Of a stretch of 64,000 nt of DNA, positions 1-27,732 are shown in pieces. The stretch is taken from sequence record PZ445454.1; one strand, 5' to 3'. The translations under genes were made by a program, and so were the position numbers. The DNA is from a phage. The first letter of the stretch is position 1. Every line of letters begins with the position of its first letter. Under the pieces are notes generated by a model. That model worked only from the letters and a program-made list of their open reading frames with translations. It was not told where the DNA came from and did no database searches.

Positions 1-2
1 TG

Positions 3-371
3 AAGTGGCTAGAGGAAGCTTTTAAAAATAATATTGGTGCAATTGTAGTTGGTATTTTTAGTGTTATTGGGATGTATACCACCATGCAAGTCTCGGATGG
101 TAAGCAAGAAGTGTCTATCACAACAAAGTTACAGCAGTTAGATAATTATTCCAAAAGTAATTATTCAGCTATTCGTGATTTACAGTCTGATATGAGGCTG
201 CTTCAGCTAGGGATGGAGAACCAGAAAGTCCAGTTAGAGAATGTTAAGGGTGAGAACGCAAAACTTACTAAGACTCTTGATAAATTCTCTGATAGTGTGA
301 ACAATCTGGCTCAATCAGTATCAGCCCTCCAAGCTATTACTGAAAAGAACACAAAGAATACTGAAAAGTAA
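3..371 (+). CDS. hypothetical protein, probably 5'-truncated by the window edge (in-frame hydrophobic segment upstream of the ATG at 72; coiled-coil-like C-terminus)
   Basis: ORF track 72..371; frame stays open back to position 3 with a hydrophobic stretch IGAIVVGIFSVIGMY; no obvious RBS before 72. Confidence 0.4.
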   Translation, partial: KWLEEAFKNNIGAIVVGIFSVIGMYTTMQVSDGKQEVSITTKLQQLDNYSKSNYSAIRDLQSDMRLLQLGMENQKVQLENVKGENAKLTKTLDKFSDSVNNLAQSVSALQAITEKNTKNTEK

Positions 372-376
372 AGTTT

Positions 377-406
377 AAGGCTCCTTTTTACGGGAGCCTT
401 TTTTGT
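377..406. terminator. hairpin plus T-run between convergent genes (candidate bidirectional intrinsic terminator)
   Basis: AAGGCTCC-TTTTTA-CGGGAGCCTT followed by TTTTTT, located between the + ORF ending 371 and the - ORF ending 408. Confidence 0.55.
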
Positions 407-407
407 T

Positions 408-1307
408 TTATTTACCTACTGACAAAGGTGCTTCAATCTTCCCTGCATGTTGATAGTTGCTAATACCACCAATAAAGTCACTTGCAGTAAGATGTTTCAG
501 GTCACTTAAAGTATTAAGTTGTAAACCAATCTCAAAAGTAGGTGCATGGAACTCTTCATTGCTCATCAGTTCATAAACCTGCTTCATATGGTTCTGATAA
601 ATCTGAGTATCCCCAAAGACACCTATCAAATATCGTGGAGTGTATCCAGTCATCTTACAAAGAACTTCCAGAATAAAACCATAAGACGCAATGTTAAAGG
701 GAAGTCCTAGAAAGGTGTCTACAGAACGCTGATACCATTGTAAGTCAACTTCACCTTCATTAGTGATATAAATCTGAAACAGAACATGACAAGGTGCTAA
801 AGCCATTGAGTTTGCTGCAATATCTGCTGCATTCCAAGCATTAACTAGCATGTAACGGTCTGTGATATCACCCTTCATCTTTGTTACTAAGGTCTCTAAC
901 TGGTCTACAACACAACCATTATGACCTTCAAAGTTTCTCCACTGAACTCCGTAGATTCTTCCACCTGCATCTTCTAACCAATCCTGTTCAGAAGAATAAT
1001 TAGAGCTTAACCAGCGTTTAAAATCATCTGACCAGATTGTCCAGCGTTCTCCGTCATTTTCACCCCAAGTACGGTAACGAAGTTCACCAAGCTTATTCTC
1101 ACCGTTCAGGAACCATAAAGCTTCCCCAATAACTTGCCGTGTAAACACCTGTTTAGATGTTAAGAGCGGGAAACCAGTTCGCATATCAAAACGAAACTGA
1201 GGTGGAGCAAATGCAGAGATAACATCTCCAGTTCGTGTAGTACGCAGTTCGCCAACAGATAAAACATGGTTCAGGATATTTTTGTAACTTGTATCTGCTT
1301 GTGACAT
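408..1307 (-). CDS. thyA: thymidylate synthase
   Basis: 299 aa; translation shows ThyA-like sequence throughout (RTGFPLLTSK, catalytic Cys region ALAPCHVLFQ, DTFLGLPFNIASY). Confidence 0.9.
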   Translation of the reverse strand: MSQADTSYKNILNHVLSVGELRTTRTGDVISAFAPPQFRFDMRTGFPLLTSKQVFTRQVIGEALWFLNGENKLGELRYRTWGENDGERWTIWSDDFKRWLSSNYSSEQDWLEDAGGRIYGVQWRNFEGHNGCVVDQLETLVTKMKGDITDRYMLVNAWNAADIAANSMALAPCHVLFQIYITNEGEVDLQWYQRSVDTFLGLPFNIASYGFILEVLCKMTGYTPRYLIGVFGDTQIYQNHMKQVYELMSNEEFHAPTFEIGLQLNTLSDLKHLTASDFIGGISNYQHAGKIEAPLSVGK

Positions 1308-23266: not shown

Positions 23267-23288
23267 GGGTCTCTTCGGAGACCTTTTT
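23267..23288 (+). terminator. intrinsic terminator
   Basis: GGTCTC-TTCG-GAGACC followed by TTTTT. Confidence 0.6.
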
Positions 23289-23307
23289 AGCATGTAAAGG
23301 GGCAATA

Positions 23308-24504
23308 ATGAACAAAGTACAGATTATTAAAAAGAATGGCTCACTCGAAGAACCTGATATCAAAAAAGTTTTAGCAGCAGTCACAAAGTCAGCTAATAGG
23401 GTTGGGTATAGAGAACTCCCACCAGATGTTACCCAAGCTCTTGAGTCAGCATTTATGAGGATTCTGGTAAAATCCACTAAGCAGAATAACTTGCTCATCT
23501 CGGTAAATGATATCCACAGTATCGTTGAAGGTGCTTTGGCAGAAGTCAATCACGAGATTTATGAGTCTTACTCAACATACAGAAATTACCGTAAAGAGGT
23601 TGCTCAAAATTGGGATGAACTCTACCAGAAGACTAAAGATACACTCTTCTTAGGTGACCGTGAAAATGCTAACTTTGACAGTAGTTTAATTTCTACGAAA
23701 GGTTCAATTATCCGTGGTTACCTGACTAAAGAAATCTTTAAACAGTATCATCTAACACCAGAGGAACTTGAAGCCATTGAGAAAGGCTTTATCTATATCC
23801 ACGATTTGAGAGACCTGATTTTTGGTGGTATTAACTGTTGCCTGTTTGACATTGGTAAAGTCCTGAAAGGTGGCTTTGAAATGTCTGGCATCGAATATTG
23901 TGAACCAAAGTCTGTGCTGTCGGCCTTACAGGTTATTGGTGACGTAGTTCTTTCAGCAACTGCACAGCAATTTGGTGGCTTTACTTTAGCAGAGATTGAT
24001 AAGGTACTTGTGCCGTATGCTAAGAAGTCTCTACGCTACCATGCTGAGAAAGCAGCATCTTATGGTATTCCTAAAGAACATTACCATAATTATGTCATGG
24101 AGCAGCTACAGCTTGAATTGACTCAAGGTTTTCAATCACTTGAAATGAAACTAAACACTGTACCTTGTAGCCGTGGGGATTTTGCATTCACAACTTTGAC
24201 ATTTGGTTTACTTGACTCAGATATGTCTAATGAAGACAACCGGCTACAATACATGATTGCAAGTACTCTCCTAGATGTTCGTATGAATGGACAAGGTAAG
24301 AGCAAGAAGCCTGTTGTATTCCCTAAACTGGTTTATATCTATGACCAGAAGAGACATGATGAAAATATCTGTCAAGGTCACCTGTACAGTAAAGCCATTG
24401 AGTGCTGCTCTAAAGCAATGTATCCAGATTTCTTAAGTGTATCTGGTCATGGTGCTGTAGCAGAGGCTTTTGAGCGTTCTGGTAAGGTTATTTCACCGAT
24501 GGGT
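23308..24504 (+). CDS. nrdD: anaerobic ribonucleotide reductase, exon 1
   Basis: ORF ends ...SPMG then stop; the stop lies in the intron; continuation CRAFLSPY...GRANIGAVSLNLP found in frame at 25247. Confidence 0.8.
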
Positions 24505-25246
24505 TAACAGGCTCTATAGCTCATCTAAAACGTGCCTAAACAGGGAAACTCTACAGATGTAGACAATCCTGTGCTAAATGATGTAAGATGTAAGAAACTA
24601 TATAACATAGGAGTATTACATGCCAAATTATCATGTTACTGAAGACGGAAGAGTCTTTAGAGAAAATGGTGTAGAGCTTACACAGTGGAAATCCAACACT
24701 GGGTATATGAAAGTAAAGTTTTACGGTAAGAAGAATCGTGACATGTATGTCCATAGGTTAGTTGCTGAGAAATATGTACCTAACCCAAACAATCTTCCAA
24801 TTGTAAAACACAAAGATGATAACAAACTGAACAACCATGCTTCTAACTTAGAATGGGGAACTCATTCTGAGAATGTTAAAGAAGGTTATGAGAACGGTTG
24901 CTACAAGTTTTGTAAGCGTTCATATGCTGTGAAGGCTACACACAAAGTGACAAAAGAAGTTATTGCTGCCAAGTCAATACGAGAGTTATCCAATATACTC
25001 GGATATAATCGCAAGACTATCTCTTCAATATTGAAGGGTGTAAAAGAGCATAATAACTTTGAACATGAATTTGAATACATCTAAATGCCGAACGACTAAC
25101 CGTGATGAATGTAGCGGTGTAGGGTCAAGCGACTCGAAATGGTACGCTACTTAGAAATAAGTAGAAGATATAGTCTGGACTTACTGGTGACAGTAAGCAG
25201 CTTGGATAAAGCGGGGTAAGCGTAGCGAACTTGCCTGAACAACAAG
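24505..25246 (+). mobile_element. group I self-splicing intron interrupting nrdD, carrying an HNH homing endonuclease ORF
   Basis: 5' exon ends in T, intron ends in G; 5' region (CTAAACAGGGAAACTCT...GTAGACAATCCTGTGCTAAAT) resembles the T4 td/nrdD intron core as I recall it; ORF in a peripheral loop. Confidence 0.8.
24620..25084 (+). CDS. HNH homing endonuclease (intron-encoded)
   Basis: 154 aa; HKDDNKLNNHASNLEWGTHSEN HNH motif. Confidence 0.8.
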   Translation: MPNYHVTEDGRVFRENGVELTQWKSNTGYMKVKFYGKKNRDMYVHRLVAEKYVPNPNNLPIVKHKDDNKLNNHASNLEWGTHSENVKEGYENGCYKFCKRSYAVKATHKVTKEVIAAKSIRELSNILGYNRKTISSILKGVKEHNNFEHEFEYI

Positions 25247-26194
25247 TGTAGAGCATTTTTATCACCATACCATAACGAAGATGGTGAAGAGTTTTATGTA
25301 GGTCGTGCTAACATTGGTGCTGTGTCTTTGAACTTACCAATGATTTACCAGTATTCTAAAGAGAATGGTTTAGATTTCTGGAAAGAGCTTGATAAGTACC
25401 TAGAGATGATTCGTAGTTTCCACAAGAAACGCTATGAAATGATTGCCAATATGCCAGCAAGTTCTAACCCTCTTGCATTTACACAAGGTGGTCTGTACAA
25501 AGGAACTAAGAAGCCTACTGACAGGGTTGGTTGGGATATTGTGAAGTCCTTCACAGCTTCTTTTGGGGTTACTGCGCTTGATGAGCTATCTGTTCTTGCT
25601 GAAGGTAAACGACTTCATGAAGTTGGAAGTTATAGTTTTGCATATGATGTTCTGGCATACATCAACATGAAAACTGAAGAGTTTAAAAATGAAGATGGCT
25701 TCTTATATGCCGTCTATGGTACTCCAGCAGAATCACTTTGTGGAACTCAGCTAAAACAGTTCAGAGAAATGTTTGGTGTTATCAAAGGTGTTTCTGATAA
25801 GGAATATTTTACAAACAGTTTCCATATGAATGTTGCAGCAGACATCTCACCATTTGAGAAGCAGGACTTAGAAGAACCATTCTTCCATATCTGTAGAGGT
25901 GGCAGAATCCAGTATGTAAGGGTAGCTAACCCAGAAAACTTAACAGCACTTAAAAGTTGTATTACAAGAGGGATGTTGAAAGGTTTTTATCAGGGACTTA
26001 ACTTTGACTTAGCAATCTGTGAACATTGTGGTAACAGACCAAAGGCTGATGTCGAAGAATGTGAGGTTTGCCATTCACATGATATCTCTGTGATTAACAG
26101 GGTGTGCGGATATCTGGGATGGACTAAGATTAAAGGTGAATCCCGAATGAATGATGCAAAAATCGCTGAGATTCGTGACAGGATTTCTATGTAA
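25247..26194 (+). CDS. nrdD: anaerobic ribonucleotide reductase, exon 2
   Basis: C-terminal Cys cluster CEHCG...CEVC and glycyl-radical motif RVCGYLG; ORF track 25322..26194 but the frame is open from 25247. Confidence 0.8.
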   Translation, partial: CRAFLSPYHNEDGEEFYVGRANIGAVSLNLPMIYQYSKENGLDFWKELDKYLEMIRSFHKKRYEMIANMPASSNPLAFTQGGLYKGTKKPTDRVGWDIVKSFTASFGVTALDELSVLAEGKRLHEVGSYSFAYDVLAYINMKTEEFKNEDGFLYAVYGTPAESLCGTQLKQFREMFGVIKGVSDKEYFTNSFHMNVAADISPFEKQDLEEPFFHICRGGRIQYVRVANPENLTALKSCITRGMLKGFYQGLNFDLAICEHCGNRPKADVEECEVCHSHDISVINRVCGYLGWTKIKGESRMNDAKIAEIRDRISM

Positions 26195-26348
26195 AACTTG
26201 ACAAGATGGTGTGGGTCTTGATAGGCTTACATCACCTTTTTTATTGGATGTTAGATATGGCAGAGAGTATTATTGGGTTGTTCATAGGTTCTGTCTTACT
26301 AGGGTTCTTTTTAGGACTCTCTTATTGTGAATTGAGAGATAAGTTAAA

Positions 26349-27246: not shown

Positions 27247-27732
27247 ATGAATTACATGGAGATTCGACCATTTGACACAGCTAATGGTGAAGGGGTTCGT
27301 GTAAGCCTCTTCGTAGCTGGCTGTAAACATCACTGTGAAGGATGCTTTAACAGGGAGTCTTGGAAGTTTAATGCTGGTAAAGAGTTTACCTATGCAAACC
27401 TCTACGGCATCATTAAGTTAATGGATGATAATGCTATCAGTGGGTTGTCAATACTTGGTGGGGAGCCTCTGGATGACAGAAACATTCAAGAGGTCACCAA
27501 CATATGCAAGCGTATTAAAACTGTTTATCCAGAAAAGTCTATATGGCTTTGGACAGGTTTTCAACTGCACGAAAAAATCCACTTAGATGTGATGAAATAT
27601 GTTGACGTGGTGATTGATGGTAAGTATGATTCATCTAAACCAACAGTTAAACCATATCGTGGTTCTGATAACCAAAACCTCTGGAGAAAAGAGTATGGAT
27701 GGCAAGGCGATTGTCAGTGGAGAGCAGAGTGA
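27247..27732 (+). CDS. nrdG: anaerobic ribonucleotide reductase activating protein (radical SAM)
   Basis: 161 aa; CKHHCEGC radical-SAM cysteine motif near N-terminus; located near nrdD. Confidence 0.75.
   Translation: MNYMEIRPFDTANGEGVRVSLFVAGCKHHCEGCFNRESWKFNAGKEFTYANLYGIIKLMDDNAISGLSILGGEPLDDRNIQEVTNICKRIKTVYPEKSIWLWTGFQLHEKIHLDVMKYVDVVIDGKYDSSKPTVKPYRGSDNQNLWRKEYGWQGDCQWRAE

What the first reader, a model, noticed from the sequence alone, without database searches (positions are those of the whole stretch)
24505..25246. Group I intron with an HNH homing endonuclease splitting nrdD
The NrdD reading frame stops after ...SPMG and resumes 742 nt later as CRAFLSPY...SLNLP, the conserved continuation. 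The intervening segment starts after an exon-terminal T, ends in G, contains a core resembling the T4 td/nrdD intron family as I recall it, and carries a free-standing HNH ORF in a loop.
Basis: partly seen in the sequence, partly recalled or inferred. Interest (0 to 1): 0.7.

Follow-up and report, generated by a model that had tools for sequence, protein, structure and literature searches.

The report
Mobile self-splicing intron in phage nrdD
[quoted passage not shown] It is an ordinary member of the T4-type phage intron family, though no paper I could search describes it as an intron.

Summary
The window is a Felixounavirus; its nrdD region is 97% identical to Escherichia phage skuden. nrdD is interrupted at 24505-25246. 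Joining 23308-24504 to 25247-26194 gives a 714-aa NrdD that is 98% identical, without indels, to the uninterrupted NrdD of phages wV8 and SeKF_63.

The insert has a complete T4-type group I fold:
- P1 has a U·G pair at the splice site, P10 has 8 bp, and the last base is G.
- P3-P9.2 are present with P7.1 and P7.2; there is no P2.
- Across seven related introns, including T4 td and a T4-type nrdD intron, 89.9% of pair cells are paired, against 34-42% in slid controls. Compensatory changes occur in 39 of 78 pairs.

Rfam misses its threshold here (38.9 vs 50 bits) because a 465-nt ORF sits in the P6a loop. A natural ORF-less allele passes (54.2).

The ORF is an I-HmuI-like HNH endonuclease under purifying selection (dN/dS 0.055). 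Relatives carry three allelic states: no intron, intron, and ORF-less intron. Intron-linked silent changes cluster in the first 54 nt of exon 2, and a mismatch-free tract shared with skuden starts 9 nt before the intron; both indicate homing.

This is a new member of a known kind, of modest interest.

The parts
23308..24504 (+). nrdD exon 1 (399 codons: ATP-cone plus the N-terminal half of NrdD), ending ...SPMG. The last 7 nt, GATGGGT (24498-24504), form the 5' strand of P1.
24505..25246 (+). Group I intron, 742 nt, T4-type subgroup IA with P7.1 and P7.2 and no P2. It starts with an in-frame TAA and ends in G (omega-G).
24511..24525 (+). Internal guide sequence. GCTCTATA (24511-24518) pairs with the first 8 nt of exon 2 (P10). 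GCTCATC (24519-24525) pairs with the last 7 nt of exon 1 (P1, with U·G at the splice site).
   Evidence: read from the sequence; P1 81.6% paired in A1
24531..24574 (+). 5' core: P3 5' strand CGTGCC (24531-24536); P4 ACAGGG / TCCTGT (24540-24545 / 24567-24572); P5 TCTAC / GTAGA (24550-24554 / 24559-24563); P6 5' strand GC (24573-24574).
24580..25081 (+). P6a stem GATGTA (24580-24585) / TACATC (25076-25081). Its loop holds the endonuclease gene.
   Evidence: The outer half of P6a (A1 helix 8, 3 pairs) is 100% paired and all 3 pairs show changes on both sides; the inner half (helix 9) is only 47.6% paired on the MAFFT alignment. Read directly from the sequences, the stems differ in every lineage: GUUC/GAAC in the T4-type nrdD intron, CAGC/GCUG in L021, CAAAGUAUU/GAAUACUUUG in F88.
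24620..25084 (+). HNH homing endonuclease gene, 154 aa, I-HmuI-like. AGGAG (24609-24613) lies 6 nt upstream of the ATG. The motif residues H64, N76 and N85 are conserved.
25087..25175 (+). 3' catalytic core: P6 3' strand GC (25087-25088); P7 GACTA (25094-25098) / TAGTC (25171-25175); P7.1 ACCG/CGGT (25099-25118); P7.2 GGGTC/GACTC (25122-25135); P3 3' strand GGTACG (25141-25146); P8 CTACTTA-GAAA-TAAGTAG (25147-25164); J8/7 AAGATA (25165-25170).
25180..25246 (+). Peripheral 3' domain: P9 CTTACTG-GTGA-CAGTAAG (25180-25197); P9.1 GCTT/AAGC (25200-25212); P9.2 GGTAAG/CTTGCC (25215-25235); tail TGAACAACAAG ending in omega-G at 25246.
25247..26194 (+). nrdD exon 2 (315 codons plus stop). It begins with the codon for Cys400, which aligns with the catalytic Cys290 of T4 NrdD, and contains Gly687, which aligns with the glycyl-radical Gly580.
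25247..25300 (+). Exon-2 tract of intron-linked, mostly silent substitutions. Fixed differences from intron-less alleles lie at +3, +9, +12, +18 and +54. This is the presumed endonuclease target and/or co-conversion tract.

Best explanation
Window 24505-25246 is a mobile group I intron of the T4-type IA family. It is inserted in the phage's anaerobic ribonucleotide reductase gene nrdD between the codons for Gly399 and Cys400, the catalytic cysteine.

**Proposed mechanism (inferred from the fold and from the experimentally characterised T4 td and nrdD introns):**
1. nrdD is transcribed through the intron.
2. The RNA folds into the P3-P9 core. The internal guide sequence pairs with the end of exon 1 (P1, U·G) and the start of exon 2 (P10).
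3. An external guanosine attacks the 5' splice site.
4. The freed exon-1 3'-OH attacks after the terminal G. This joins ...AUGGGU to UGUAGAGC... and restores one 714-aa reading frame.

**The endonuclease.** The P6a loop encodes an I-HmuI-like HNH endonuclease. In mixed infections it most likely nicks or cuts the intron-less nrdD allele close to the insertion site, mainly recognising exon-2 sequence. Recombinational repair from the intron-bearing genome then copies in the intron together with adjacent exon-2 sequence (homing with co-conversion).

**Shown here:**
- the exact junction;
- the conserved, covarying fold;
- purifying selection on the ribozyme, the ORF and the exons;
- presence/absence polymorphism of the intron among relatives;
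- exon-2-linked substitutions and a mosaic identity tract.

**Inferred, not shown:** splicing itself, endonuclease activity, and the cleavage site.
For: **Junction**
- The spliced product is 98% identical, without indels, to uninterrupted NrdD of wV8 and SeKF_63.
- Only the given boundaries satisfy both the exon-terminal U and the terminal G.

**Fold**
- Rfam Intron_gpI scores 38.9 bits, E = 3.3e-8, in the window, plus a separate P4-P6 hit.
- The ORF-less allele in phage ECOH1 scores 54.2, above the gathering score of 50. A T4-type nrdD intron scores 66.7.
- The minimum-free-energy fold of the ORF-less allele recovers P3, P4, P5, P6, P6a, P7.1, P7.2, P8, P9 and P9.2.
- The named structure was counted on 7 introns, including T4 td and a T4-type nrdD intron. 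It gave 89.9% paired cells vs 34-42% when partners were slid, and 39 of 78 pairs had changes on both sides. No shuffle out of 500 reached the observed values. P3, P4, P8 and P9.2 are 100% paired, with 2-5 compensatory pairs each.

**Selection**
- The ribozyme part has a p-distance of 0.019 among alleles, against 0.165 at ORF third-codon positions. nrdD dN/dS is 0.04 among intron-bearing alleles.
- HNH dN/dS has a median of 0.055.

**Endonuclease**
- It matches I-HmuI (PDB 1U3E) at E = 1.1e-9 over the full length.
- The AlphaFold model has pLDDT 90.6, and its only significant PDB match is 1u3e at E = 4.5e-12.
- H64, N76 and N85 are invariant in 26 homologues.

**Mobility**
- Relatives show three allelic states. 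From the tools' summary counts, roughly 60 records have intron plus ORF, about 35 have the ORF-less intron, and about 130 have no intron.
- Divergence between intron-bearing and intron-less alleles is 0.18 in the first 60 nt of exon 2, against 0.03-0.06 around it. Fixed differences lie at +3, +9, +12, +18 and +54, and there are none in exon 1.
- Against phage skuden there are 0 mismatches from 24496 to at least 25799. Exon 1 upstream (24000-24499) has 13-20 mismatches per 250 nt.
- The same MG|C site holds related intron-plus-HNH elements in Vibrio phage F88 and in four metagenomic phage contigs. Their HNH proteins are 39-80% identical to this one.
Against: - No RNA data were available, so splicing is not demonstrated.
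- The full-length window copy is below Rfam's gathering score (38.9 vs 50).
- The residue before the catalytic His is Lys, where I-HmuI has Asp. That position is variable across the family, so activity cannot be read off the sequence.
- The exon-2 substitutions could reflect co-conversion from a diverged donor alone, rather than the endonuclease's target.
- No promoter for the ORF stood out above chance: 7 promoter-like sites were found against 9.6 expected.
Confidence: 0.9

Rival explanations
1. A homing endonuclease gene landed in nrdD without a working intron. NrdD is then made as two polypeptides that assemble, as in Aeromonas phage Aeh1, where mobE splits NrdA into two functional pieces.
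For: GenBank records annotate two nrdD CDSs plus a homing endonuclease. Papers describe it only as a split gene interrupted by a homing endonuclease (PMC4837284). Exon 2 has an in-frame GTG at 25322.
Against: - The 277 nt outside the ORF form a complete, covarying group I core. They evolve about 8 times more slowly than ORF third-codon positions.
- The ORF-less allele keeps the ribozyme intact and still interrupts the gene.
- A product starting at 25322 would lack Cys400, the equivalent of the catalytic Cys290 of T4 NrdD.
- No start codon sits at the junction.
Confidence: 0.04
2. The intron is a decayed relic that no longer splices, and nrdD is a pseudogene in this phage.
For: The window copy is below Rfam's gathering score. 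nrdD is needed only in anaerobic growth, so it might be dispensable.
Against: - nrdD dN/dS is 0.04 among intron-bearing alleles, and both exons are intact.
- All core helices are intact, and the positions invariant in T4 td and the T4-type nrdD intron are conserved.
- The low score is explained by the 465-nt ORF in P6a.
Confidence: 0.03
3. The intron splices, but the HNH protein is no longer an active homing enzyme; for example it may be retained for another role. On this view the intron's patchy distribution reflects ordinary recombination and loss rather than endonuclease-driven homing.
For: - Lys replaces the Asp that precedes the catalytic His in I-HmuI.
- ORF-less introns persist in about 35 records, all with one shared 426-nt in-frame deletion.
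- Phage genomes are mosaic in any case.
Against: - dN/dS of 0.055 shows the protein is maintained.
- H64, N76 and N85 are invariant, and the pre-His position varies among homologues.
- The recombination boundary with skuden falls within 9 nt of the 5' splice site. The intron-linked substitutions hug the insertion site on the exon-2 side.
- From established knowledge (Goodrich-Blair & Shub 1996; Shen et al. 2004), the exon-2 side is where I-HmuI-type enzymes bind and nick.
Confidence: 0.12

Closest known systems
Phage T4 td intron with I-TevI
   Same: Same T4-type IA fold with P7.1 and P7.2. Core identity is 65% overall, and the 3' part matches at about 70% by blastn. The ORF lies in the P6a loop. 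An in-frame stop follows the 5' splice site directly. The host gene is a nucleotide-metabolism gene of a virulent enterobacterial phage.
   Different: The host gene is td, not nrdD. td has a P2 hairpin, which is absent here. The endonuclease is GIY-YIG, not HNH.
Phage T4 nrdD (sunY) intron with I-TevII
   Same: Same host gene and the same guide sequence GCUCAU. Identity in P3-P7.1 is 83%, and the P7-P7.1 24-mer is identical.
   Different: It is inserted in codon Tyr180 of T4 NrdD, which aligns with residue 280 here, 120 codons upstream of this site. Its ORF is a GIY-YIG enzyme located in the P9.1 region, not in P6a.
Bacillus phage SPO1 DNA-polymerase intron with I-HmuI (PDB 1U3E); also I-BasI
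   Same: The endonuclease is the closest solved homologue by sequence (E = 1.1e-9, full length) and by fold (E = 4.5e-12). From established knowledge, these are intron-encoded nicking enzymes that recognise mainly the 3' exon. That fits the exon-2 bias of the linked substitutions seen here.
   Different: The host gene and host phylum differ. Protein identity is only about 26%. Lys replaces the Asp before the catalytic His. Activity was not tested here.
Phage RB3 / T4 nrdB intron with I-TevIII
   Same: It is an HNH endonuclease encoded in the P6a loop of a T4-type intron in a ribonucleotide reductase gene (established knowledge; PMC2988022). In T4 itself the ORF has been inactivated by a large deletion, which parallels the ORF-less alleles here.
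   Different: The host gene is nrdB (class I small subunit). I-TevIII makes a double-strand break and has a different DNA-binding region. It was not compared by sequence here.
Aeromonas phage Aeh1 NrdA split by mobE
   Same: A ribonucleotide reductase gene interrupted by an HNH endonuclease gene and annotated as two CDSs.
   Different: In Aeh1 there is no intron, and the two polypeptides assemble (PMC3653736). Here a complete ribozyme flanks the ORF.

Membership tests
Group I intron (Rfam RF00028) | Score at or above the curated gathering threshold of the covariance model | tested here: inconclusive
   The window copy scores 38.9 bits against a threshold of 50, with E = 3.3e-8. The natural ORF-less allele, whose excised core is 97% identical to the window's, scores 54.2 and passes. 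The shortfall is due to the 465-nt ORF in P6a.
Group I intron | P1 formed by an internal guide sequence with a U·G pair at the 5' splice site, and a terminal G at the 3' end | tested here: met
   GAUGGGU (24498-24504) pairs with GCUCAUC (24519-24525), and U24504 pairs with G24519. The last intron base, 25246, is G. An 8-bp P10 joins 24511-24518 to 25247-25254.
Group I intron | Conserved core P3-P9 with the P3/P7 pseudoknot, supported by covariation | tested here: met
   89.9% of cells are paired vs 34-42% when slid, and 39 of 78 pairs have compensatory changes. P3 is 100% paired, with 5 of 6 pairs covarying. P7 is invariant.
Group I intron | Guanosine-dependent self-splicing that ligates the exons | not testable with these tools
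   Only the DNA-level junction with intron-less alleles could be checked; it is exact.
Subgroup IA, T4-type (td / nrdB / nrdD introns) | Extra hairpins P7.1 and P7.2 between P7 and P3', and sequence similarity to the T4 introns | tested here: met
   P7.1 lies at 25099-25118 and P7.2 at 25122-25135. Core identity to T4 td and the T4-type nrdD intron is 65-67%. P2 is absent, unlike td.
HNH (beta-beta-alpha-Me) endonucleases, Pfam HNH_3 | Profile match above the curated cut-off, with the catalytic His and the two Asn of the motif conserved | tested here: met
   PF13392 scores 40.2 bits against a cut-off of 24.8. H64, N76 and N85 are invariant in 26 homologues.
I-HmuI-like intron-encoded nicking endonucleases | Full-length architecture: N-terminal beta domain, HNH, helical linker and C-terminal helix-turn-helix | tested here: met
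   phmmer to 1U3E gives E = 1.1e-9 over residues 3-145. The model has pLDDT 90.6, and Foldseek to 1u3e gives E = 4.5e-12 over 163 columns. There is a weak NUMOD1 hit at residues 118-137.
I-HmuI-like intron-encoded nicking endonucleases | Site-specific nicking of the target gene near the intron insertion site | not testable with these tools
   Indirect evidence only: intron-linked substitutions at +3 to +54 of exon 2.
Mobile (homing) intron | Presence/absence polymorphism at one precise site among close relatives, with co-conversion of flanking exon sequence | tested here: met
   Three allelic states exist. The exon-2 divergence peak and fixed differences are intron-linked. The mismatch-free tract 24496 to at least 25799 against skuden ends within 9 nt of the 5' splice site.
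Mobile (homing) intron | Endonuclease-dependent super-Mendelian inheritance in mixed infection | not testable with these tools
   This requires phage crosses.
Intein | In-frame insertion translated with the host protein | tested here: not met
   An in-frame TAA sits at 24505-24507, directly after exon 1. The HNH ORF has its own Shine-Dalgarno sequence and ATG.

The most novel reading that the evidence does not exclude
The elements at the nrdD Gly|Cys site and the classical T4 nrdD (sunY) intron may be sister lineages of one ribozyme that moved between two sites in the same gene. The two sites are 120 codons apart, and the move would have been guided by an unchanged guide sequence, GCUCAU. Both targets read AUGRGU, which is the signature expected of reverse-splicing transposition. 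After the move, the ribozyme would have acquired a different endonuclease (HNH in P6a rather than GIY-YIG in P9.1).

On this reading the exon-2 silent substitutions at +3 to +18 would be self-immunity changes in the nicking site. The U at +3 would also complete P10.
Probability: 0.2. Interest if true: 0.45.

Novelty: new member of a known kind. Interest (0 to 1): 0.3.

Why it matters
**Annotation.** About 95 deposited Felix O1-like genomes, many of them phage-therapy or biocontrol candidates, list nrdD as two genes plus a "homing endonuclease". It should be annotated as one spliced gene.

**A possible study system.**
- Three allelic states occur in phages that otherwise share about 94% identity in nrdD.
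- The co-conversion boundary is sharp.
- The endonuclease is I-HmuI-like, a family whose route from nick to homing is still unclear.
- The hosts, E. coli and Salmonella, are easy to work with.

**Biology.** The insertion directly before the catalytic cysteine codon, repeated in Vibrio-phage and metagenomic nrdD genes, is another example of homing elements targeting the most conserved codons of essential enzymes. None of this changes current understanding.

Tried and rejected
1. **Rfam on the whole window.** At gathering threshold there was no intron hit. This is explained by the ORF in P6a and does not count against the intron.
2. **Second intron in the window.** A paper on phage SPJ41 mentions "two introns" (PMC9951933). 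No further hit appeared in the window at E <= 0.01.
3. **Chimera idea.** I considered a 5' half from the T4 nrdD intron and a 3' half from td. It is not supported beyond family-level similarity, since overall identity is 65-72% to every family member compared.
4. **Hairpin hiding the ORF's ribosome-binding site and ATG, as for I-TevI.** A stem exists, but it is not more stable than shuffles (z = -0.26).
5. **Internal promoter for the ORF.** Promoter-like sites are not enriched: 7 found against 9.6 expected.
6. **Campylobacter phage hits to the intron core.** According to the literature, the intron described in Campylobacter group II phages is in the large-terminase gene, not nrdD. The hit loci themselves are unannotated and I did not inspect them.
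7. **JSE phage homologue.** I tried to locate the phage JSE protein cited by Bardina et al. as 53% identical. A tblastn search with a 56%-identical relative returned 62 records, the 25 listed all Felix-type; JSE was not located.
8. **Own covariance model.** I did not build one, because a model of about 270 positions would exceed the calibration limit. I used pair counting on a MAFFT alignment instead. This understates pairing in the badly aligned loops: the inner part of P6a, P9.1 and P10.
9. **Intein reading.** Rejected because of the in-frame stop directly after exon 1.

Full report
**Context.** The nrdD region of the window (23300-26200) is 97.2% identical to Escherichia phage skuden. It is 94-96% identical to many Salmonella and Escherichia phages of the genus Felixounavirus. 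The region is the nucleotide-metabolism module: nrdB, a glutaredoxin gene, a small membrane-protein gene, nrdD, then nrdG at 27247-27732.

**Observation.**
- The ORF 23308-24507 ends ...GKVISPMG, followed by TAA. A frame reading CRAFLSPYHNEDGEEFYVGRAN... opens at 25247 and runs to 26194.
- Pfam places NRDD profile positions 1-250 (plus an ATP-cone) in the first piece. Positions 264-560 (plus the glycyl-radical domain) fall in the second piece.
- Joining 24504 to 25247 gives a 714-aa protein. It is 98.5% and 98.3% identical, with no indel, to the uninterrupted NrdD of phages wV8 and SeKF_63, whose DNA reads ...CCGATGGGT|TGCAGAGCC....
- A 1-nt shift of both boundaries would give the same mRNA. 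Only 24505-25246 leaves a U at the end of exon 1 and a G at the end of the insert.

**The RNA.**
- Rfam's group I model does not reach its gathering score on the window. With permissive settings it gives 38.9 bits (E = 3.3e-8) at 24912-25197, and a separate local hit to P4-P6 at 24540-24637.
- The shortfall is caused by the 465-nt ORF. Phage ECOH1 carries the same intron with the ORF deleted (315 nt), and this allele scores 54.2 bits, above the threshold of 50. A T4-type nrdD intron (phage IME537) scores 66.7.
- I read the helices off the sequence (coordinates):
  - P1: GAUGGGU (exon 1) with GCUCAUC, with U·G at the splice site.
  - P10: GCUCUAUA with UGUAGAGC (exon 2), 8 bp, directly adjacent to P1 on the guide sequence.
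  - No P2.
  - P3: CGUGCC/GGUACG. P4: ACAGGG/UCCUGU. P5: UCUAC/GUAGA. P6: GC/GC.
  - P6a: GAUGUA/UACAUC, enclosing the ORF.
  - P7: GACUA/UAGUC, followed by P7.1 and P7.2.
  - P8 with a GAAA loop and P9 with a GUGA loop, then P9.1, P9.2 and the tail ...CAACAAG.
- The minimum-free-energy fold of the ORF-less allele recovers all of these except P7, which forms a pseudoknot with P3.
- I counted this structure on an alignment of seven introns: the window, ECOH1, Vibrio phage F88, two IMG/VR introns, the T4-type nrdD intron and T4 td.
  - 89.9% of cells are paired, against 34-42% when partners are slid.
  - 39 of 78 pairs have changes on both sides.
  - 0 of 500 shuffles reach the observed values.
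  - P3, P4, P8 and P9.2 are 100% paired; P7 is invariant.
- The lower values for P10, P9.1 and the inner part of P6a reflect MAFFT misalignment of variable loops.
- Among seven Felix-type alleles the ribozyme part differs by 1.9%, while third-codon positions of the embedded ORF differ by 16.5%. The RNA is therefore under purifying selection.

**The site.**
- Alignment with T4-type NrdD (34% identity) puts Cys400 of this protein on T4 Cys290. Gly687 falls on the radical-bearing Gly580, and Cys177 on Cys79 (conserved PMGCRSF also in PDB 9d3x).
- From established knowledge of T4 NrdD (Logan et al. 1999), Cys290 is the cysteine at the tip of the finger loop that initiates catalysis. The intron therefore sits directly 5' of the catalytic cysteine codon.
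- The classical T4 nrdD intron lies elsewhere, inside codon Tyr180, which corresponds to residue 280 here, 120 codons upstream.
- Both introns use the same guide sequence, GCUCAU, against AUGAGU (T4) or AUGGGU (here).
- The Gly|Cys site is occupied by related introns in several other phages:
  - Vibrio phage F88, with an HNH ORF in P6a;
  - a 137-kb IMG/VR contig, where the intron is ORF-less;
  - four metagenomic contigs whose HNH proteins are 80, 58, 56 and 47% identical to this one.

**The protein.**
- The 154-aa ORF has AGGAG 6 nt upstream of its ATG and matches Pfam HNH_3 and PHROG 59.
- Its only solved relative is I-HmuI, the nicking endonuclease of the SPO1 DNA-polymerase intron: E = 1.1e-9 over nearly the full length.
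- A model built on 26 homologues has pLDDT 90.6, and its only significant PDB match is 1u3e at E = 4.5e-12.
- H64, N76 and N85 are invariant. The residue before H64 is Lys, where I-HmuI has Asp, but that position varies within the family.
- Median dN/dS among ten copies is 0.055.
- Several homologues end in ...EMPND or ...CPTTMADECKPVESSDSKREAA. These are read-through translations of the ribozyme's P6'-P7-P7.1-P7.2 sequence. This shows that the HNH lineage has long lived in the P6a loop of this intron family.

**Mobility.**
- Felix-type records fall into three states: no intron, a roughly 316-nt ORF-less intron, and the 742-nt intron with ORF. From the tools' summary counts these number roughly 130, 35 and 60 records; these are estimates.
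- The three ORF-less alleles I inspected (L001, L009, L015) share one in-frame 426-nt deletion (ATGCCAAAT|AACTTC) that leaves a 12-codon remnant.
- I compared 10 intron-bearing with 5 intron-less nrdD genes. Between-group divergence equals within-group divergence everywhere except the first 60 nt of exon 2, where it is 0.18 against 0.05-0.06. Fixed, mostly silent differences lie at +3, +9, +12, +18 and +54, and there are none in exon 1.
- The U at +3 also completes P10.
- Against skuden, the window has no mismatch from 24496 to at least 25799. That tract covers the intron plus more than 550 nt of exon 2. Exon 1 upstream (24000-24499) carries 13-20 mismatches per 250 nt.
- A recombination boundary within 9 nt of the 5' splice site, with a tract running into exon 2, is what homing with asymmetric co-conversion produces. 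It also fits the exon-2-directed binding and nicking known for I-HmuI-type enzymes (established knowledge; reviewed in PMC2988022).

**Rivals.**
- A two-piece NrdD split by a free-standing endonuclease, as in Aeh1 NrdA, is contradicted by three points. The ribozyme is conserved and covaries. It is retained in ORF-less alleles. Any exon-2 product started at the first in-frame start (GTG 25322) would lack Cys400.
- A dead intron or pseudogene is contradicted by nrdD dN/dS of 0.04 among intron-bearing alleles.
- An intein is excluded by the in-frame stop directly after exon 1.
- It remains possible (about 0.1) that the endonuclease is no longer an active homing enzyme.

**What is known.**
- The Felix O1 genome paper reported no introns (PMC3185647). 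Felix O1's close relative wV8 is indeed intron-less at this site.
- Later papers noted a split nrdD interrupted by a homing endonuclease in some Felix-like phages, without calling it an intron (PMC3728262; PMC4837284).
- One paper lists "two introns" among the ncRNAs of SPJ41 without detail (PMC9951933).
- I found no paper describing the ribozyme, its site or its mobility.
- Group I introns with endonucleases in phage RNR genes, including nrdD, are textbook material (PMC3653736; PMC2988022; PMC12880540).

**Verdict.** It is a new, largely unannotated member of a well-known kind. Interest is modest (0.3). The most novel reading still open is relocation of one ribozyme lineage between two nrdD sites under an unchanged guide sequence.

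Noticed in passing
window 25094-25117; loci L007-L028: The exact 24-mer GACTAACCGTGATGAATGTAGCGG (P7 plus P7.1) occurs in 22 IMG/VR viral contigs. Eleven of them showed no nrdD match. One of these (L028) interrupts a terminase-like gene with a Walker A motif; I did not identify the host genes of the other ten. The 24-mer looks like a shared, near-invariant module of T4-type introns.
   Followed up: partly
L038 330-4134 (GCA_037963475 contig): This metagenomic nrdD carries the same Gly|Cys intron with HNH. In addition, its exon-1 product is 688 aa long with a weak Intein_splicing Pfam hit. It may be an intein and an intron in one gene.
   Followed up: no
alignment A2 (proteins P0003, P0006, P0010, P0015, P0019; L003 2527-3030): The C-terminal tails of HNH homologues (EMPND; CPTTMADECKPVESSDSKREAA) are translations of the ribozyme core downstream of P6a. 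In those introns the ORF therefore overlaps catalytic RNA sequence.
   Followed up: partly
L033 (Escherichia phage pEC-M719-6WT.1), around the nrdD Gly|Cys codons: This intron-less allele, from a more distant relative (84% nrdD identity), has the exon-2 sequence typical of intron-bearing alleles, except for C at +3. It could be the donor lineage of the co-converted tract, or a case of precise intron loss.
   Followed up: no
L001 2004-2318, L009, L015: The three ORF-less introns inspected share one in-frame 426-nt deletion that leaves a 12-codon mini-ORF (MPNNFEHEFEYI). They occur in phages whose exon 1 differs by up to 12%, so the deleted intron has itself spread.
   Followed up: partly
window 58577-63556: This is a cluster of 25 tRNA genes (ARAGORN; 23 by Rfam). 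tRNA-Arg(TCT) at 63384-63476 is 93 nt long, which is unusually long for an arginine tRNA.
   Followed up: no
window 23268-23283 and 26207-26234: Terminator-like hairpins followed by T-runs bracket nrdD. wV8 has annotated terminators at the equivalent positions. The intron-containing gene may therefore be its own transcription unit.
   Followed up: no
L002 2496-3540 (phage IME537): In this T4-like record the nrdD intron is annotated as two nrdD CDSs, and the second CDS overlaps the I-TevII-type ORF. This is the same annotation problem seen in the Felix-type records.
   Followed up: no
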